This document shows positions 378-19,775 of a DNA stretch of 20,499 nucleotides, in pieces. This DNA is from a virus. Every line of letters starts with the position of its first letter. Positions within the stretch are counted from its first letter, which is position 1. Position numbers and translations under genes: made by a program. The notes beneath the pieces are model-generated. The model worked only from the letters and a program-made list of their open reading frames with translations, had not been told where the DNA came from and ran no database searches. The stretch lies in UHGV virus genome UHGV-0263856. One strand, written 5' to 3'.

Positions 378-454
378 TGGCGCGTTGTACTGGATTCGAA
401 CCAGTGACCGATTGCTTAGAAGGCAATTGCTCTGTCCGGCTGAGCTAACAACGC
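378..454 (-). tRNA. argO: tRNA-Arg (anticodon UCU)
   Basis: Reverse complement reads GCGTTGT-TA-GCTC...GAGC-ATTGC-CTTCTAA-GCAAT...GGTTCGAATCC...ACAACGC-G-CCA. Cloverleaf is complete with a 7-bp acceptor stem and encoded CCA; anticodon loop CUUCUAA. Symbol is by analogy with the 933W-type ileZ-argN-argO cluster (from memory). Confidence 0.85.
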
Positions 455-467
455 AGGGTACAGATAA

Positions 468-544
468 TGGACCGCCATCGAGGACTCGAACCCCGCGCAA
501 CCAGCTTCGAAGGCTGGCGCTCTATCCTGATGAGCTAATGGCGG
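468..544 (-). tRNA. argN: tRNA-Arg (anticodon UCG)
   Basis: Reverse complement gives a cloverleaf with D-stem GCTC/GAGC, anticodon stem CCAGC/GCTGG, loop CUUCGAA, T-loop GGTTCGAGTCC and encoded CCA. The acceptor stem starts with C1-G72, which is unusual, so the exact 5' end is uncertain by 1 nt. Confidence 0.8.
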
Positions 545-551
545 TATGTGA

Positions 552-627
552 TGGTGGCCCTTGCTGGATTTGAACCAGCGACCTGGCGATTATGAGTCGC
601 TCGCTCTCACCACTGAGCTAAAGGGCC
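552..627 (-). tRNA. ileZ: tRNA-Ile2-like (anticodon CAU, lysidine type; Met not formally excluded)
   Basis: Reverse complement GGCCCTT-TA-GCTCAGTGGTGAGAGC-G-AGCGA-CTCATAA-TCGCC...GGTTCAAATCC...AAGGGCC-A-CCA. Near-identical in layout to E. coli tRNA-Ile2 (ileX) as recalled. Confidence 0.85.
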
Positions 628-9704: not shown

Positions 9705-9895
9705 GGACGCACCTCCACCGTAGTTACGTATTTAACCGGGCTACCTTTCATTGAGATGGTTTCACACATCTCTGCCGCTTTCAGTTCCGCTGTTTTTCTG
9801 GATTTATAGCGACGGTGCCAGACAGATACATCCGTGCGAACTGATACATCGTTTCTGTATTCCGTAGTGGAGATGATGATTTCGTAACTAATCAT
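9701..9895 (-). CDS. Hypothetical protein
   Basis: 64-aa ORF, translationally coupled on both sides. Confidence 0.4.
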   Translation of the reverse strand: MISYEIIISTTEYRNDVSVRTDVSVWHRRYKSRKTAELKAAEMCETISMKGSPVKYVTTVEVRP

Positions 9896-10443
9896 GGGCG
9901 AACCTCCTTGTCAGAACCATTCAGCCTGGAATCAACAAGTGCAGCGCCAAAAACAGCATCACCAACACGGTCGTACAGTTTGCTAGCCAGCGGAGATTCA
10001 ACGGCCTTAAGCATTGGATAAAGCTGGCTTGTCCAGATTTGATGGATTTCACGCAAATGCAGGTATACGCCTCTGGCGTTTCGTGCGACAGCTGACATAT
10101 CAGACGCATCGGCACCTGATAAACTCTTCTCCATCAGGTTAAAGGCGTTGATGTATGCCTCTTTGAACCGGGCTGCACGTTTGCCAGTAAAGCCCATAGC
10201 AAGGAACGCGAAGCCATCACGGGTGATTTGATAGCAAGGTAGTTTGCGGCCTGTGCAATCGGTGTAATCACTCACCGAAAAATTGCGGGCAGTGAATGAT
10301 GCGGAGCATTCAAGCGTGCGGATCTTTTTCAGTACATCGTCATGACGCTTGGAGAAGAAGTTGGCAACAGCCAGGGATGAAGTAACAGCCTGACCATCAA
10401 CGATGGCAATTTCAGGTTGAGTGAGGGTTGGGATCGTAGCCAT
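9892..10443 (-). CDS. Rha-family phage regulatory protein
   Basis: FSKRHDDVLKKI and DGFAFLAMGFTGKRAARFKEAYINAFN match the Rha domain as recalled. GGAGG 8 nt before the ATG at 10443. The ORF track extends in frame to 10743 but that N-terminal 100 aa is low-complexity with no SD. Confidence 0.6.
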   Translation of the reverse strand: MATIPTLTQPEIAIVDGQAVTSSLAVANFFSKRHDDVLKKIRTLECSASFTARNFSVSDYTDCTGRKLPCYQITRDGFAFLAMGFTGKRAARFKEAYINAFNLMEKSLSGADASDMSAVARNARGVYLHLREIHQIWTSQLYPMLKAVESPLASKLYDRVGDAVFGAALVDSRLNGSDKEVRP

Positions 10444-10828
10444 GATGGCAGCCTCCGTTGACTGTGGAAAACTTCCACCACCGGAGCTGCGAAACTCACT
10501 GGTGGCAGACTGAACAGGGTTCGCAGTACCGGCGTCAACGGAAACCGGCGAGCCTTTCGGCTCCCCTGCCCAGCCCACCATAATTCTGGCGTGCGTGAGC
10601 GCGGACGATAAAAAAGACGCTGGCGCGTCATATATCGCCGTTGACAATTCCGGGCTGCGACCCCCGGCACCCGCTTTATAAGGTGCAGAGACAGTGTAAC
10701 GTCCCGAAATTGCAGAATCAATATTTGGTCTTGAAATGATCATATAGCTGCTGATATCTTTAGAACTGTTCTTGGATGTTTCGGAGCCGTTTTATGCGAA
10801 ACAGCTCCCCGTTATTGATGTTGAGTGA

Positions 10829-11783: not shown

Positions 11784-11894
11784 TCTTTAGTCTCACACCA
11801 GATACTTTGTTATCCAACGATGTTAACCACGGGAATCCAAAGTATCAAGAAATTCTGTTACTTTAGTATCAACAGCCATGAGAGGAGAAGAAAA
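11784..11894. promoter_or_regulatory. Divergent immunity control region (OR with PR/PRM candidates)
   Basis: Motif copies at 11803-11811 (reverse orientation), 11840-11848 and 11864-11872. Candidate - strand PR: -35 TTGATA (rc of 11843-11848), 17-nt spacer, -10 TAACAT (rc of 11820-11825). Candidate PRM -10 TAGTAT at 11864-11869. Confidence 0.5.
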
Positions 11895-12551
11895 ATGAAG
11901 TCTTTAGGTGAACGTCTCATCAACGCACGGCAAAAAGCTGGGTTAACACAAGATGCGTTGGCTAAAAAAGCTGGGATCACCAGAGTTGCAATCAGTAAAG
12001 CCGAGCAAGGCCTTACAAAAAGTTTCAACGGTGACACCCTTTTTAAAGTTGCAGCTGCACTGCGGTGTTCACCGCAGTGGCTTCAGAACGGAGATGAAAA
12101 AGATAAGCATTGGGAAAATAATGTTAAGAGCTGCCCACAGAGAGACACAGCACACTCTTACCCTGTAATTAACTGGGTTCAGGCAGGATTATTCGCAACT
12201 TCTGGTGATGACTACAACATGTATGATCAGGATAATTGGAGGCATTCTGTAAAATACGCTGGTGAGAGGGGGTTCTGGCTGGAAGTGCACGGAGACTCAA
12301 TGACTTCGCCCGTAGGAATAACATTTCCTGAAGGAATGTCGATCCTTGTCAACCCAGATAAAGAAGTTTTTTCAGGGTGTTACGTCATCGCCAGAAAAAA
12401 ATCGACCAATGAAGCAACATTCAAAAAATATATTTCTGACATGGGAAAGGCGTTTCTAAAGCCCCTTAATCCACAATATCCAATCATAGAAATGGACAAT
12501 GATTGCGAAATAGTAGGTGTTGTGGTTGATGCCAGGTGGGATATTTTCTGA
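11895..12551 (+). CDS. cI: CI-like prophage repressor (HTH plus S24 LexA-type peptidase domain)
   Basis: AGGAG 8 nt before the ATG at 11895. N-terminal LTQDALAKKAGITRVAISKAEQG (HTH), C-terminal WLEVHGDSMTSP...GCYVIARKK (Ser/Lys autocleavage dyad). Confidence 0.9.
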   Translation: MKSLGERLINARQKAGLTQDALAKKAGITRVAISKAEQGLTKSFNGDTLFKVAAALRCSPQWLQNGDEKDKHWENNVKSCPQRDTAHSYPVINWVQAGLFATSGDDYNMYDQDNWRHSVKYAGERGFWLEVHGDSMTSPVGITFPEGMSILVNPDKEVFSGCYVIARKKSTNEATFKKYISDMGKAFLKPLNPQYPIIEMDNDCEIVGVVVDARWDIF

Positions 12552-14887: not shown

Positions 14888-15194
14888 CTCACAACTAACC
14901 ATAGAAACGGCCCTGAATGTCGGCCTGGCGCTCCTTGGTTATTTTTACATCGTGTTCTGCAGCGGACGGTGGCTGTCGCTGTTGTTCCTGAAAAAATGGA
15001 ATAAACGCCGTAAGCAGGATGAACGCCAGAAGGCAATGAATGCGTTTTCCGAAGCCTTCGGAATTGACGGCATGGAACCAGGGGATCCAGCTCGCGCAAT
15101 CAGCAGAGGGGGTGTAGTAATCCTTGTATATCGGAGTGAAGAGAAAAATGACGATCACAAAACAACGAGTAGAAAAAATCATATATCGCCATGA
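14877..15194 (+). CDS. Small membrane protein (one TM helix)
   Basis: 105 aa with LNVGLALLGYFYIVFCSGRWLSLLFL. The 3' end overlaps the next ORF by about 47 nt, so the true extent is uncertain. Confidence 0.4.
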   Translation: MATDSQLTIETALNVGLALLGYFYIVFCSGRWLSLLFLKKWNKRRKQDERQKAMNAFSEAFGIDGMEPGDPARAISRGGVVILVYRSEEKNDDHKTTSRKNHISP

Positions 15195-15462
15195 AATGGG
15201 ACTGAACAGCGATGTCACTGCCGAAGAGGTTTATGACCTGGCTGTACTGGCGCTGAATTTATCAAATATCGCAAACCTGAAGCGATACGAGCTTGATATG
15301 GATGGTTGCGACTCGTGCGGTCAGGATTGTGGCGCAGATATGACTGAAGATCCTGATGGTGATTATGTCCTGTTTGATGACGTGGTTAAGTTGTTTGAAT
15401 TTGATACAACCACTCAAAAGTTAGAAATCCCGGCAAAGGAGGCTGCCAGTGAGCAAGATTGA
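15148..15462 (+). CDS. Hypothetical acidic protein
   Basis: ATG at 15148 with an upstream purine-rich stretch. C-terminus acidic with CDSCGQDCG. Confidence 0.45.
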   Translation: MTITKQRVEKIIYRHEMGLNSDVTAEEVYDLAVLALNLSNIANLKRYELDMDGCDSCGQDCGADMTEDPDGDYVLFDDVVKLFEFDTTTQKLEIPAKEAASEQD

Positions 15463-15631
15463 CTATCAGGCACTGCGCGAGGCGGCGGAACAGGCAACGC
15501 AAGATGAATGGGTAGCATATATTTGCCGGGTCATAACGGCATTTATCCTGCGCGCACGTCTGAGGGTAGGCATTGCGGATACTTTATTGACTGGCCTGGC
15601 GTCTGTCAGGGGCGGGAGAGCATCAACATGA
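15449..15631 (+). CDS. Ea22-like N-terminal module (possibly the 5' part of a frameshifted Ea22-like gene continuing in 15628-16134)
   Basis: AAAGGAGG SD and GTG start. MSKIDYQALREAAEQATQDEW is paralogous to the start of 16131-16616. The rest of the ORF is Arg-rich and looks out of frame. Confidence 0.35.
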   Translation: MSKIDYQALREAAEQATQDEWVAYICRVITAFILRARLRVGIADTLLTGLASVRGGRAST

Positions 15632-16134
15632 GCATCAGAACCTACGCAGTGAATTGCAATGACGCATGGCTAAACACCGAAGGTGATGACATCTCCGGCT
15701 CATACGTTAAGTACAAAGACCATCAGGAAGTGGTTGCCGCTCTTGAGGCCAAGTGCGCGGCGCTGGCAGCGGAGAATGCGGGAATAAAGTCTGCAATTCC
15801 AGAATCACGGGATATTGAGGATGACAATGACAATATGGATGACGTATCTCTCGCGGAAGACTTCGGGTTCAATCATGCAATAGAACGGATGAGGAGACAG
15901 ATACCTGAAACGCCAACCACTGATGCTTTCCTGGCTGAAGTCCGGGCGCAGGGGGTGGACGCTGCTATAGAAGCTGCAAAAAATCTGGTGGCCCAAGAAT
16001 ATGAGTATAAGGATTTCAAAGCGGCGCAGAGTGATTGCTGTATGTACCCTGGTTCAGACCTGGTAGGGAAGGTTGAAATGACTGAGTGGTTAGTTGACTT
16101 TGCTGCCCAGCTTCGCAAAGGAGGCAACCAGTGA
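15628..16134 (+). CDS. Hypothetical protein (Ea22-like body suspected)
   Basis: GGGAGAG SD before the ATG at 15628, which overlaps the preceding stop (ATGA). 169 aa. Confidence 0.55.
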   Translation: MSIRTYAVNCNDAWLNTEGDDISGSYVKYKDHQEVVAALEAKCAALAAENAGIKSAIPESRDIEDDNDNMDDVSLAEDFGFNHAIERMRRQIPETPTTDAFLAEVRAQGVDAAIEAAKNLVAQEYEYKDFKAAQSDCCMYPGSDLVGKVEMTEWLVDFAAQLRKGGNQ

Positions 16135-16616
16135 GCGAAATTAATTACCAGGCACTGCGTGAGGTGGCGGAACGTGCAATTCCAGCAATGGAACGCCTGT
16201 TAATGTTGCCAGCTGATGATGACTTGTTAAGTGAACAGGAACTTAAAGATTACGGTGTGGATATTGATGCGCTCAACGCCTTCAAATTTCTGACCGGACC
16301 AGAAACCGTGCTGGCACTGCTGGATGAACGGGAAAGAAACCTGCAATACATCAAAAGCCGCGATCAGGAGAACGAGGATATTGCGCTAACGGTAGGGAAG
16401 CTGCGCGTTGAGCTTGAAGCAGAAAAACAGCGGGCAAAAGTTCTATTTATGGAAAATGCTCGGCTTAAGTCAGGCATAGCCGGTCTGATACACCTCGGTA
16501 TTCGATATGCAGATGTTGAGGTCATGAAAATTGCTGGAGATGCCCAGCTTTCTACCCCATGCACTGACAGCATCATAAACAGCATTGCAACAGGCATTCG
16601 CATCAAAGGAGAGTGA
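16131..16616 (+). CDS. Ea22-like family protein
   Basis: AAAGGAGG SD and GTG start. N-terminus MSEINYQALREVAERA; coiled-coil-like middle. Confidence 0.5.
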   Translation: MSEINYQALREVAERAIPAMERLLMLPADDDLLSEQELKDYGVDIDALNAFKFLTGPETVLALLDERERNLQYIKSRDQENEDIALTVGKLRVELEAEKQRAKVLFMENARLKSGIAGLIHLGIRYADVEVMKIAGDAQLSTPCTDSIINSIATGIRIKGE

Positions 16617-16617
16617 T

Positions 16618-17133
16618 ATGGCGTTAACACACCACGAACTCTGTCAGATTGCGTACAAGTTCCTTAAGCGCAACGGGTTCAAGGTTTGCTTTCATGACCG
16701 CTTTGTTGCTGTAACCAGTACCGGAGAACAGCCAGATGCTATGGGATTCAGAAATTCAGCATCATGCCTGATAGAGGCGAAGTGTTCTCGTGCTGACTTG
16801 TTGGCAGATAGAAAAAAGCGTTTCCGTAAAAATCCCTCACTTGGCATGGGCGACTGGCGATTCTTTATTAGTGAGCCGGAAATTATTTCAGTTGAGGATT
16901 TACCTCCCGGCTGGGGATTACTTCACGTTGTTAACGGAAGAGTACGGAAAGTACATGGATGGCCCAGGGGTAATTGCTGTTGGGGTAATCCTGACGATAA
17001 GCCATTTACTGGGAATAAGCAGGTTGAATGCGATTACATGTTATCTGCATTAAGGCGCATGGAGTTGAGAGGGCACCTTAATGAAATATATGACGGTGTG
17101 ATTGTTAATAAGAAAGAAGGAAACGCGGCATGA
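16618..17133 (+). CDS. PD-(D/E)xK-type nuclease-fold protein (MmcB-like suspected)
   Basis: AAAGGAGAG SD before the ATG at 16618. Motif GEQPDAMGF...CLIEAKCSRADL fits the PD...(D/E)xK signature. Confidence 0.5.
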   Translation: MALTHHELCQIAYKFLKRNGFKVCFHDRFVAVTSTGEQPDAMGFRNSASCLIEAKCSRADLLADRKKRFRKNPSLGMGDWRFFISEPEIISVEDLPPGWGLLHVVNGRVRKVHGWPRGNCCWGNPDDKPFTGNKQVECDYMLSALRRMELRGHLNEIYDGVIVNKKEGNAA

Positions 17134-17315
17134 TCACTATTACCAAAGGGCGACTGCTGACAATCAAGCAGTGGCGCGAAACATACGGACCGGGTAGCAA
17201 CGTTGTACTGCCAGCAGAAGAAGCGGAAGAACTGGCACGAATTGCACTGGTATCGCTGGAAGCAGAGCCGGTTGTGTTCTGGTTTGAAAAATATCAAGAA
17301 GGGGCTACGGCATGA
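17130..17315 (+). CDS. Hypothetical small protein
   Basis: 61 aa. Shares the [10 protein letters not shown]-encoding 26-bp repeat with the next gene. Confidence 0.45.
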
Positions 17316-17656
17316 CGACTTTTACCAGAGAGCAGTTAATAGCTCACGCAGAGGAGACTATTGAAGCACAGAGACTGTGCATACCGGGTACAATCGACCA
17401 TGACATCATCCGCACATATAAGATGGATATTGCTGTTCTGGAAATCGCACTGGTATCGCTGGCAGCAGAGCCAGCCGGTAAATTGCATGAATACAAACCA
17501 GTGGGATATCAGCGTCTGGTCGATGAGTTAACCATGCTGGTAAAGCAGTTAACCTGGCAACTGAGGAAAGCGAAGCCAGACTGCAAATTACCGGATAAGG
17601 CGATGAGTTATCTGGAGCGGAACGGACTGATAAGCGTGGAGGATATTTTACGATGA
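17312..17656 (+). CDS. Hypothetical protein
   Basis: 114 aa. 4-nt start/stop overlaps with neighbours. Confidence 0.5.
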
Positions 17657-18141: not shown

Positions 18142-18378
18142 ATGGGCAATGTGATTCAACTGGCTCCCAATGAATGGGTTTGTGAAAGCGTTCTTATCGC
18201 AATTACCGGGCTCAAACCAGGCACAATTCTTCGGGCCCGGAAAGAATGCTGGATGGTTGGAAGAGAGTATATTCACGTATCACCAGACGGTAATCCAAAG
18301 CCTTCCAGTGAATGTATGTATAACAGAAAAGCAATAGATGCCTGGGTCGCCTCAATGAAAAACAAACAACCCAGGTGA
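18142..18378 (+). CDS. xis: Excisionase (Xis-like)
   Basis: 78 aa immediately upstream of int. RARKECWMVGREYIHVS resembles lambda Xis (RRWVRECRIF...GREYLFHES). Confidence 0.6.
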   Translation: MGNVIQLAPNEWVCESVLIAITGLKPGTILRARKECWMVGREYIHVSPDGNPKPSSECMYNRKAIDAWVASMKNKQPR

Positions 18379-18433: not shown

Positions 18434-19747
18434 ATGGATAAAGTCAAATATCCAACAGGCGTCGAAAACCACGGCGGCACATTACGCATCTGGTTTAATT
18501 TTAAAGGTAAACGTGTCAGGGAAAATCTTGGTGTCCCTGACACTGCCAAGAACAGGAAGATCGCCGGGGAACTGCGGACATCAGTATGTTTTGCCATCCG
18601 CACAGGAAGCTTTGATTATGCTGCACAGTTCCCTGACTCCCCCAACCTTCAGGCTTTTGGGGTAAGTAAAAAAGAAATTACGGTGAAGGAACTTGAAGAA
18701 AAGTGGCTGGATCTGAAACGAATGGAAATCTCTGCAAATGCATTCAATCGCTATGAATCCGTTGCAAGAACGATGGTTCCGAAAATTGGAGGCAGTAGAC
18801 TGGTGTCATCGGTAACCAAAGAGGAATTGCTGTATATCAGGAAAGATTTGCTTACCGGGTATCAGAATTCAACGAAAAACAAAGCAGCAGCAAAAGGACG
18901 GAGCGTCGTTACTGTAAATTATTACATGACGACAATCGCTGGAATGTTTCAGTTTGCTGCAGATCACGGTTACTTAGAAGCAAATCCCTTCCAGGGAATT
19001 AAGCCTCTTAAAAGAGCCAGGGCAGAGCCAGATCCGCTAACTCGTGACGAATTTATTCGCCTGATAGATGCTTGCCGACATCAGCAGACGAAAAACCTGT
19101 GGTCATTGGCTGTGTACACAGGAATGCGTCACGGTGAACTGGTCTCCCTGGCCTGGGAAGATATCGATCTGAAGGCAGGAACAATTACCATCAGGCGCAA
19201 TTATACGAAACTTGGTGAGTTCACTCTACCGAAAACTGAAGCAAGCACAAACAGGGTTGTGCACCTTATCCAGCCCGCTATCAGTGTCCTGAAAAATCAG
19301 GCTGAAATGACAAGACTGGGTAAGCAGTACAACATCAAGGTGCAACTACGTGAATATGGACGTTCAGTGAACCATGAATGTACTTTCGTGTTTAACCCTC
19401 AAGTGGTTAGAAAAAGCGAACAGGTAGGTTTTGTCTACAAAGTCGATTCTGTAGGTGACTCATGGGAAACAGCCATTAAGCGTGCAGGGATCAGGCATCG
19501 AAAGGCATACCAGTCACGACACACTTATGCGTGCTGGTCATTATCTGCCGGAGCAAACCCAAGCTTCATTGCCAGCCAGATGGGCCATGCAAGTGCCCAG
19601 ATGGTATTCAATGTATACGGAGCATGGATGACTGACAGCAATGCAGAACAGATCGCAATGCTGAATCAGAAGCTGACAGATTATGTCCCAATGATGCCCC
19701 ATAGTCACCAAAGTGACACCAGAGGCTTATTAAAATCAGTAAGTTAA
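18434..19747 (+). CDS. int: Tyrosine-type site-specific integrase
   Basis: 437 aa. GGAGG SD. C-terminal catalytic region TGMRHGEL...SRHTYACW...GHAS...VYGAWM (R, HxxR, Y). Confidence 0.9.
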   Translation: MDKVKYPTGVENHGGTLRIWFNFKGKRVRENLGVPDTAKNRKIAGELRTSVCFAIRTGSFDYAAQFPDSPNLQAFGVSKKEITVKELEEKWLDLKRMEISANAFNRYESVARTMVPKIGGSRLVSSVTKEELLYIRKDLLTGYQNSTKNKAAAKGRSVVTVNYYMTTIAGMFQFAADHGYLEANPFQGIKPLKRARAEPDPLTRDEFIRLIDACRHQQTKNLWSLAVYTGMRHGELVSLAWEDIDLKAGTITIRRNYTKLGEFTLPKTEASTNRVVHLIQPAISVLKNQAEMTRLGKQYNIKVQLREYGRSVNHECTFVFNPQVVRKSEQVGFVYKVDSVGDSWETAIKRAGIRHRKAYQSRHTYACWSLSAGANPSFIASQMGHASAQMVFNVYGAWMTDSNAEQIAMLNQKLTDYVPMMPHSHQSDTRGLLKSVS

Positions 19748-19775
19748 TCCTTAATACCCGTCATGTTAACTGCGT
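19745..19775. other. Prophage-host junction (int-proximal att site) within the yecE-like reading frame
   Basis: The int stop is at 19745-19747. The yecE-like frame is open from 19717 and reads ...RHVNCVEGNTT across the junction. The exact core cannot be defined because the other prophage end is outside the window. Confidence 0.4.

What the first reader, a model, noticed from the sequence alone, without database searches (positions are those of the whole stretch)
15436..16181. Paralogous Ea22-like 5' modules, one apparently frameshifted
The SD plus first ~20 codons are duplicated at 15436-15500 and 16117-16181 (MSKIDYQALREAAEQA vs MSEINYQALREVAERA). After the conserved N-terminus the first copy runs into an Arg-rich, out-of-frame-looking tail and stops at 15631, overlapping the ATG of 15628-16134. 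This pattern fits either a frameshifted Ea22-like gene or modular recombination at a conserved 5' cassette.
Basis: partly seen in the sequence, partly recalled or inferred. Interest (0 to 1): 0.4.

Follow-up and report, generated by a model that had tools for sequence, protein, structure and literature searches.

The report
Frameshifted Ea22-like prophage gene beside paralog
Two neighbouring Ea22-like genes of a lambda-type prophage in E. coli share the family's conserved start region, and the first gene is broken by the loss of one T; this is a real, widespread and already annotated mutation, so the finding is ordinary.

Summary
A 65-nt repeat (15433-15497 / 16115-16179, 83% identical) holds the ribosome-binding site and the first ~16 codons of two tandem Pfam PF13935 (Ead/Ea22) genes. 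They lie in the early-left operon of a lambdoid prophage, upstream of xis and int.

The first gene (15449-16134) is a frameshift allele. The window has TTT at 15522-15524 where intact alleles have TTTT. Adding one T gives a 228-aa protein identical to a common E. coli protein. RefSeq marks the identical locus in strain SF-088 as a 'frameshifted' ead/Ea22-like pseudogene.

It is not a sequencing error: the same 60-aa product is on 741 contigs and in five complete genomes that are identical over the gene. There is no slippery site for programmed frameshifting.

The shared 5' module is family-wide. In IMG/VR it is fused to at least 12 unrelated downstream modules, in line with the published mosaic build of Ea22.

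One point goes beyond routine. Three independent lesions (delta-T, delta-G, TG duplication) lie within 54 nt, and all shift into the frame that stops at the ATGA overlap at 15628. About a third of sampled copies carry one. The 168-aa restart product may therefore be tolerated or functional, which is untested. Interest is low.

The parts
15433..15497 (+). 5' junction cassette, copy 1. It holds the Shine-Dalgarno AAAGGAGG, lying in the last codons of the upstream gene 15124-15462, then GTG 15449 and the first ~16 codons (MSKIDYQALREAAEQA).
   Evidence: Direct repeat, 83% identical to copy 2. It aligns with the conserved island at about -16..+45 around the start codon in 97 unique IMG/VR loci.
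16115..16179 (+). 5' junction cassette, copy 2. The Shine-Dalgarno lies in the last codons (RKGGNQ*) of the first Ea22-like gene, followed by GTG 16131 (GTGA stop/start overlap) and the first ~16 codons (MSEINYQALREVAERA).
15449..16134 (+). Frameshifted Ead/Ea22-like gene. It is 686 nt; the intact allele is 687 nt and encodes 228 aa.
   Evidence: The identical locus in SF-088 is annotated by PGAP as 'ead/Ea22-like family protein, frameshifted'. An intact allele sits at the same locus in BEC1-S17-ESBL-09. The T-restored translation is identical to P0001. Pfam PF13935 scores 102 bits on the restored protein.
15522..15524 (+). Lesion site: a TTT run where intact alleles have TTTT (1-nt deletion at codon 25/26).
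   Evidence: Alignment A1.
15449..15631 (+). 60-aa ORF. Residues 1-25 are the authentic Ea22 N-terminus; the next 35 residues are out-of-frame (CRVITAFILRARLRVGIADTLLTGLASVRGGRAST).
   Evidence: Pfam matches only residues 2-26. The exact sequence is on 741 contigs. phrog_14804 covers the whole length.
15628..16134 (+). 168-aa ORF in the original frame, equal to residues 61-228 of the intact protein. Its ATG overlaps the TGA of the 60-aa ORF (ATGA), and GGAG at 15615-15618 lies 9 nt upstream. It is a candidate for termination-reinitiation.
   Evidence: Pfam profile positions 48-138 are matched. The exact sequence is on at least 1000 contigs.
16131..16616 (+). Intact paralogous Ead/Ea22-like gene, 161 aa. 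It ends in IRIKGE*, whose codons AAA GGA GAG form the Shine-Dalgarno of the next gene (ATG 16618).
   Evidence: Pfam PF13935 at 108.8 bits, profile positions 1-139. It is 27% identical to the 228-aa paralog beyond the cassette. The 3' junction is described.

Best explanation
The locus is a tandem pair of Ead/Ea22-like genes. They lie in the early-left (pL-type) operon of a lambdoid prophage of E. coli, between the CI-type repressor and xis-int.

Both genes begin with the family's conserved junction cassette: a Shine-Dalgarno sequence placed in the 3' end of the preceding gene, plus about 15 codons reading xSxIxYQALREAAE. The family is a mosaic in which this cassette is joined to many different downstream modules.

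The first gene carries a genuine, inherited 1-nt deletion (TTTT to TTT at 15522-15524) at codon 25/26. Ribosomes starting at GTG 15449 therefore read 25 authentic residues, then 35 out-of-frame residues, and stop at TGA 15629-15631. The full-length 228-aa protein is not made, and the strand-rich half of its N-terminal domain is lost.

The stop overlaps an in-frame ATG (ATGA) preceded by GGAG. I infer that the remaining 168 codons, which cover the coiled-coil and C-terminal parts, can still be translated by coupling.

I take the allele to be a neutral or mildly defective pseudogene-type variant that is carried along in prophages. The downstream 161-aa paralog is intact.

Shown: the repeat, the lesion, the intact allele at the same locus, family membership, and the wide distribution of the allele. 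Inferred: translation of the fragments, and loss or reduction of function.
For: Repeat.

Lesion and intact allele at the orthologous locus. The T-restored gene is identical to P0001.

Intact alleles: intact 228/226-aa proteins at 97-100% identity occur on well over a thousand contigs.

Reading frame: the intact frame is conserved in a divergent homologue, 37% identical straight through the frameshift zone.

Family: Pfam PF13935 covers the restored protein in one stretch. The two fragments match profile positions 1-25 and 48-138 separately.

Annotation: PGAP labels the identical locus as frameshifted.

Not an error: the exact 60-aa product is on 741 contigs and in 1468 index blocks, and five complete genomes are 100% identical over the gene.

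Decay: extra frameshifts downstream (delta-G at 15951, delta-T at 15966) occur only in alleles that are already split. The count is 3 of 14 against 0 of 31.

Neighbours: nearby genes are also flagged as frameshifted or incomplete.

Context.

Mosaic family with a shared N-terminal segment: and PMC10834534.
Against: The allele and two other independent frameshift alleles are very common. In a spread sample of 60 E. coli records carrying the N-module, 21 have a frameshifted length.

Each lesion occurs in several different mosaic backgrounds.

All three primary lesions lie in the first 26% of the gene, upstream of the internal ATG, and all enter the same frame. The stronger homopolymers downstream (G5 at 15951, A6 at 15978) are not sites of primary lesions.

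This pattern fits tolerance of, or selection for, an N-terminally truncated product better than purely random decay.

The secondary-lesion statistic is weak: p = 0.026 counting genomes and 0.09 counting events.
Confidence: 0.7

Rival explanations
1. Functional split. The lesions are tolerated or selected because they remove the N-terminal domain while an N-terminally truncated 168-aa Ea22-like protein (coiled coil plus C-terminal domain) is still made by termination-reinitiation at the ATGA overlap. The locus would then work as two genes, as PGAP annotates it in O111:H2 strain 12A.
For: There are three independent primary lesions: delta-T at 15522-24, delta-G at 15528-30 and a TG duplication at 15574-75. 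All lie upstream of ATG 15628, and all enter the frame that stops at 15629-31.

The chance that 3 of 3 lesions fall in that 26% of the gene is about 0.018, computed post hoc.

GGAG lies 9 nt before the ATG.

Each lesion is found with different C-terminal modules, and every one of those modules is open: 168, 232, 137 and 147 aa.

About 35% of sampled copies are split.

Lambda Ea22 naturally lacks the strand-rich part of the N-terminal domain (PMC7093339).
Against: Second frameshifts inside the 168-aa ORF occur only in split alleles.

Intact alleles with in-frame 6- or 12-nt deletions lose the internal ATG, so that codon is not conserved as a start.

Recombination can keep supplying fresh intact C-modules, so open ORFs are not proof of selection.

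The lambda Ea22 C-terminal domain alone is inactive (PMC10834534).

No expression data exist. The statistics are post hoc and rest on three events.
Confidence: 0.22
2. Sequencing or assembly error in a homopolymer of this particular window.
Against: The same T3 allele is 100% identical in five complete genomes from different laboratories. Its exact product is on 741 contigs from NCBI, ENA and Logan and in 1468 index blocks. Point variants of the T3 product also exist.
Confidence: 0.02
3. Programmed -1 ribosomal frameshift or transcriptional slippage restores the full-length protein from the T3 allele.
For: A -1 shift near 15521-15525 would recreate exactly the intact protein. A weak 5-bp hairpin (15524-15541) follows the run.
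Against: There is no X XXY YYZ heptamer in any phase between 15449 and 15629. No homopolymer of 4 or more bases lies at the site. A run of three T is far too short for polymerase slippage. The two other lesions sit at different positions and have no shared slippery motif.
Confidence: 0.02
4. The 60-aa ORF is an independent conserved small gene, or a chimera made by recombination at the 5' cassette.
For: phrog_14804 is a 60-residue family that matches the ORF end to end. RefSeq names 60/61-aa 'ead/Ea22-like family proteins'.
Against: Every such protein examined is a product of one of the three frameshift alleles. The tail is the out-of-frame reading of a domain that is conserved in the other frame. 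Pfam matches only residues 2-26.
Confidence: 0.03

Closest known systems
Ea22 of phage lambda and the mosaic Ea22 variants of Stx phages (exo-xis region; Dydecka et al. 2020, PMC7093339; NMR and mosaic analysis 2024, PMC10834534); Pfam PF13935 / InterPro IPR025153 Ead_Ea22
   Same: Both window genes score far above the PF13935 threshold. They share the N-terminal segment, have variable C-terminal parts, and lie in the early-left operon upstream of xis-int. The second gene ends in the K/RGE tripeptide described for Ea22 proteins.
   Different: No exo/bet genes were recognised in this window. Neither protein matches any solved chain, the lambda Ea22 C-terminal domain included, so the C-terminal domains are of other types. 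Two paralogues sit in tandem, and one of them is frameshifted. The pro-lysogenic function and the tetrameric state were not tested here.
PGAP-annotated 'frameshifted' ead/Ea22-like pseudogene AN203_RS10140 of E. coli SF-088 (NZ_CP012635.1)
   Same: The sequence is 100% identical over window 15100-16700, with the same lesion and the same neighbours.
   Different: None in sequence. PGAP annotates the TG-duplication allele in O111:H2 strain 12A as two separate genes rather than a pseudogene.
Short conserved boundary or 'linker' sequences at gene junctions of lambdoid phages, proposed as sites of homologous exchange between modules (modular-evolution concept; cited from my own knowledge, not from a paper read here)
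   Same: There is a sharply bounded conserved island of about 60 nt at the gene start, and a conserved 3' junction (GGCATTCGCATCAAAGGAGAGTGA(T/G)ATG). Unrelated sequence lies on both sides. The cassette is joined to at least 12 different modules. A mosaic breakpoint falls at the start of the gene at 17129/17130.
   Different: Whether the cassette is kept by recombination, by protein function of the N-terminal helix, or by translation-initiation needs was not resolved.

Membership tests
Pfam PF13935 Ead_Ea22 (ead/Ea22-like family) | Whole-protein score above the curated gathering threshold (27 bits) | tested here: met
   Restored 228-aa protein 102.2 bits; 161-aa paralogue 108.8 bits; 60-aa fragment 38.8 bits (profile 1-25); 168-aa fragment 43.3 bits (profile 48-138).
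Pfam PF13935 Ead_Ea22 (ead/Ea22-like family) | Shared amino-terminal segment followed by a central coiled-coil region (PMC10834534) | tested here: inconclusive
   The N-terminal segment is clearly present. A coiled coil is supported only by Pfam coverage and by a helix at residues 92-110 in a low-confidence AlphaFold model (pLDDT 46.6).
Lambda-type Ea22 (exo-xis region gene) | Position in the early-left operon between the immunity/recombination genes and xis-int | tested here: met
   CI-type S24 repressor at 11820-12551 (+); the Ea22-like genes at 15449-16616; DUF1233 excisionase at 18142-18378; integrase at 18434-19747, all on the + strand.
Lambda-type Ea22 (exo-xis region gene) | Lambda-type C-terminal domain (solved by NMR) | tested here: not met
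   phmmer of both proteins against all PDB chains gives only chance hits with E of 0.14 or higher. This agrees with the published variability of the C-terminal domain.
Lambda-type Ea22 (exo-xis region gene) | Pro-lysogenic activity; tetrameric protein | not testable with these tools
   Requires lysogenisation and induction assays and biophysics (PMC7093339, PMC10834534).
Frameshift pseudogene allele | A single indel restores an ORF colinear with intact homologues, and an intact allele exists at the same locus | tested here: met
Frameshift pseudogene allele | The lesion is reproducible in independent assemblies | tested here: met
Frameshift pseudogene allele | Loss of function or relaxed constraint | tested here: inconclusive
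   Secondary lesions occur only in split alleles, 3/14 against 0/31, p = 0.026 or 0.09. Against this, the split alleles are very common, and their lesions cluster upstream of a possible restart codon.
Programmed -1 ribosomal frameshift | Slippery heptamer X XXY YYZ in the 0 frame within the overlap zone | tested here: not met
   None in any phase between 15449 and 15629.
Translational coupling (termination-reinitiation) | Overlapping stop and start codons with an upstream Shine-Dalgarno-like sequence | tested here: met
   ATGA at 15628-15631; GGAG at 15615-15618. Actual reinitiation was not testable.

The most novel reading that the evidence does not exclude
Recurrent, independent frameshifts confined to the 54 nt between codon 25 and codon 43 repeatedly convert a full-length Ea22-like gene into a two-ORF form. 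In that form a 168-aa protein lacking the N-terminal domain is made by termination-reinitiation at an ATGA overlap. This truncated form would be functional and favoured, or at least maintained, in prophages and P1-like phage-plasmids. It would amount to a natural domain deletion of a lysis-lysogeny modulator.
Probability: 0.2. Interest if true: 0.4.

Novelty: already known. Interest (0 to 1): 0.18.

Why it matters
As it stands, little. It is a correctly spotted pseudogene-type allele in a mosaic phage gene family of poorly understood function, and RefSeq already flags it.

It has some practical value for annotation. The 60/61-aa 'ead/Ea22-like family proteins' and phrog_14804 are frameshift products, not a gene family.

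If the truncated 168-aa product proved functional, these natural alleles would be ready-made domain-deletion mutants. They could be used to dissect what the conserved N-terminal domain of Ea22-like proteins does in the lysis-lysogeny decision.

Tried and rejected
1. Sequencing error. Rejected because identical alleles occur in many independent assemblies.

2. Programmed frameshift or slippage. Rejected because there is no slippery heptamer and no long homopolymer at the site.

3. An RNA element in the cassette. Rfam at gathering thresholds finds nothing between 15000 and 17000. The promoter and terminator scan there is at or near chance and shows nothing that bears on the finding.

4. Solved-structure homologues. 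None were found for either protein.

5. NCBIfam. No model matches.

6. AlphaFold2 on the single sequence of the intact 228-aa protein. The mean pLDDT was 46.6, too poor for fold searches, so only rough secondary structure was used. A deeper alignment could not be supplied, because the 120 listed homologues are 97-100% identical.

7. A fourth lesion type. I looked in other length classes among plasmid and chromosomal hits. The split copies examined carried the delta-G or TG-duplication lesion, and the other length classes were in-frame deletions.

Full report
**Observation**

The stretch 15433-15497 is repeated at 16115-16179. The copies are 65 nt long, 83% identical and 682 nt apart. Similarity begins abruptly at GCAAAGGAGG and ends near codon 16, with no alignable sequence on either side. 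A degenerate 19-mer from the repeat occurs twice in the window against 0.01 expected from shuffles.

Each copy holds a Shine-Dalgarno sequence, a GTG start inside the motif CCAGTGAGC, and about 16 codons. The N-termini read MSKIDYQALREAAEQA and MSEINYQALREVAERA.

The first start opens a 60-aa ORF (15449-15631). Its TGA overlaps the ATG of a 168-aa ORF (15628-16134). The second start opens a 161-aa ORF (16131-16616).

**Context**

The window is the regulatory and early part of a lambdoid prophage of E. coli.
- On the minus strand lie a DNA methylase, three tRNA genes, a Q antiterminator, DUF968, a DnaB-type helicase, a DnaC-like loader and Rha/Ash proteins.
- On the plus strand lie a CI-type S24 repressor (11820-12551), an HTH protein, DUF4752, the two Ea22-like genes, several small genes, DUF4222, a DUF1233 excisionase (18142-18378) and an integrase (18434-19747). 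A host DUF72 gene follows.

The Ea22-like genes thus sit where ea22 sits in lambda: in the early-left operon upstream of xis-int.

**What the first gene is**

The window is 100% identical over 15100-16700 to four complete E. coli genomes. In one of them, SF-088, PGAP annotates 15449-16134 as 'ead/Ea22-like family protein, frameshifted'.

Strain BEC1-S17-ESBL-09 carries, at the same locus and with the same neighbours, an intact 687-nt gene of 228 aa, WP_033877702.1. In the 265-column alignment around the lesion, the window differs from it only by TTT instead of TTTT at 15522-15524. Over the whole gene there are also two synonymous substitutions.

Adding one T to the window sequence gives a protein identical to P0001. 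The restored protein matches Pfam PF13935 Ead_Ea22 in a single stretch (profile 1-138, 102 bits). The 60-aa and 168-aa ORFs match only profile positions 1-25 and 48-138.

A divergent homologue from IMG/VR (L078) is 37% identical straight through the frameshift zone in the intact frame. Compare WVAYILPGHNGIYPARTSEGRHCGYFIDWPG with WVAFISSGTGTYAVHTPGDKRCEDVIKWPG. The intact frame is therefore the one under protein-level conservation, and the Arg-rich tail is out-of-frame reading.

Intact 228/226-aa proteins at 97-100% identity are abundant, with individual sequences on up to 395 contigs.

**Not an error, and not programmed**

The exact 60-aa product is on 741 contigs from several sources and in 1468 index blocks. 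Point variants of it exist. Five complete genomes carry the 686-nt allele.

There is no X XXY YYZ heptamer anywhere between 15449 and 15629, and no homopolymer of four or more bases at the site. Programmed frameshifting and polymerase slippage are therefore not supported.

**Other alleles**

Among complete genomes with a full-length match, allele lengths are as follows:

| Length (nt) | Allele | Genomes |
|---|---|---|
| 687 | intact | 24 |
| 681 | in-frame 6-nt deletion (226 aa) | 7 |
| 686 | T3, as in the window | 5 |
| 685 | T3 plus delta-G in the G5 run at 15951 | 2 |
| 689 | TTTT plus a TG duplication at 15574-15575 | 6 |
| 688 | TG duplication plus delta-T at 15966 | 1 |

A third primary lesion is delta-G in GGG at 15528-15530. 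It occurs in P1-like phage-plasmids and in one chromosomal prophage.

All three primary lesions put the ribosome into the same frame, which stops at 15629-15631. The third frame would stop much earlier.

Each lesion occurs in several mosaic backgrounds.
- T3 occurs with a 161-aa or a 221-aa downstream paralogue.
- Delta-G and the TG duplication occur with different upstream genes and with C-terminal modules of 137, 147, 168 and 232 aa.
- TG-duplication products with variant N-termini occur, including one named from Salmonella.

In a spread sample of 60 of the 175 E. coli records that carry the N-terminal module, 21 have a frameshifted length and 39 an intact length.

**Pseudogene or functional split?**

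Evidence for decay:
- Second frameshifts inside the 168-aa ORF occur only in alleles that are already split, 3/14 against 0/31. Fisher's test gives p = 0.026 by genome and 0.09 if the two 685-nt genomes count as one event.
- Intact alleles with 6- or 12-nt in-frame deletions at the 8-nt direct repeat GAGCATCA (15618-25 / 15630-37) lose the internal ATG, so it is not conserved as a start.
- Neighbouring genes are flagged as frameshifted or incomplete.
- The lambda Ea22 C-terminal domain alone is inactive (PMC10834534).

Evidence for a tolerated or functional split:
- All three primary lesions lie in the 26% of the gene upstream of ATG 15628 (P about 0.018, post hoc).
- Stronger homopolymers downstream (G5, A6) are not primary lesion sites.
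- The stop and start overlap as ATGA, with GGAG 9 nt upstream.
- The split alleles are common and persistent.

I rank the plain pseudogene-type allele first (0.70) and the functional split second (0.22). The sequence-level facts are the same under both.

**The 5' cassette**

In 97 unique loci, the N-terminal 13-16 residues xSxIxYQALREAAE are fused to at least 12 unrelated continuations.

Mean pairwise nucleotide identity rises from a background of 0.27-0.35 to 0.5-0.97 only between about -16 and +45 relative to the start codon. This holds at positions the search pattern left free, although requiring an exact pattern match biases the sample towards similar sequences.

This matches the published description of Ea22 proteins as mosaics that share an amino-terminal segment and a coiled coil and have unrelated C-terminal domains (PMC10834534; PMC7093339).

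Megablast matches to the gene in other genomes break repeatedly near nt 330, 460 and 500 of the gene. Compared with L127, the window has a replaced block from 16422 (mid coiled coil) to 17129, the next gene start.

It does not explain the aberrant tail of copy 1.

**Structure**

AlphaFold2 on the single intact sequence gave a poor model with mean pLDDT 46.6. I take only its rough secondary structure: a helix at 6-15, strands at 21-44, a helix at 92-110 and a helical C-terminal part. This agrees with the 'one helix plus three strands' N-terminal domain predicted for Stx-phage Ea22 (PMC7093339). The frameshift at codon 26 would remove the strand-rich part. No solved structure matches either protein.

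**Verdict**

The feature is already annotated in RefSeq and fits the known mosaic Ea22 family. Interest is low. The only point beyond routine is the recurrent clustering of common lesions upstream of a plausible restart codon.

Noticed in passing
window 16596-16620; also 16115-16134 and 15433-15462: The C-terminal K/RGE tripeptide of Ea22 proteins is described as of unknown significance in PMC7093339. It is encoded by AAA GGA GAG, which is the Shine-Dalgarno sequence of the next gene (IRIKGE* then TGATATG at 16618). In IMG/VR loci, 70 of 102 Ea22-like ORFs have [KR]G[EG] in their last 8 residues. Most of these share a conserved 3' junction, GGCATTCGCATCAAAGGAGAGTGA(T/G)ATG, followed by diverse genes. 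The first Ea22-like gene (RKGGNQ*) and the upstream gene (PAKEAASEQD*) likewise carry the next gene's AAAGGAGG in their last codons.
   Followed up: partly
window 15618-15625 and 15630-15637: An 8-nt direct repeat, GAGCATCA, with a 12-nt period brackets the internal ATG. Intact alleles in P1-like plasmids carry in-frame 12-nt (L137) or 6-nt (L139, the 226-aa form) deletions here that remove the Met codon.
   Followed up: partly
window 17114-17151 and 17296-17333: This is a second pair of paralogous 5' cassettes (38 nt, 74% identical). They start the small genes at 17130-17315 (MITITKG...) and 17312-17656 (MTTFTRE...). The first corresponds to the CDS PGAP marks incomplete (missing C-terminus) in near-identical genomes. 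A 252-aa 'phage protein' starts at the same position in O111:H2 strain 12A. Many genes that follow Ea22 3' junctions elsewhere also start MTTIT....
   Followed up: partly
window 16618-17133: This is an open 171-aa ORF with strong matches to phrog_9263 (1e-120) and phrog_631, but no Pfam or NCBIfam hit. In near-identical genomes PGAP annotates only its first 179 nt, as a 'frameshifted hypothetical protein'. That looks like an annotation artefact or an unrecognised fusion.
   Followed up: no
window 10498-10585 (-) and 10610-10686 (-): Rfam finds a C4 antisense RNA (81 bits) and the isrK Hfq-binding RNA (59 bits) side by side. Both lie within the coordinates of the Ash/Rha ORF at 9892-10743. This suggests an antisense-RNA-controlled antirepressor-type module in this prophage.
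   Followed up: no
window 381-627 (-): Three tRNA genes are clustered between the DNA methylase gene (677-1726) and the window start.
   Followed up: no
window 19747-19774: The integrase gene ends at 19747 and a DUF72-family (host-type) gene starts at 19774. The prophage end and attachment site should lie in or near this short gap.
   Followed up: no
L006, L135-L139, L141 (IncY / P1-like plasmids of about 90-120 kb): The same Ea22-like N-terminal module is very common on non-mobilizable P1-like phage-plasmids: 100 of 181 matching places in E. coli genomes, and 284 plasmid records. There it is again arranged in tandem Ea22-like arrays with varied C-terminal modules.
   Followed up: partly
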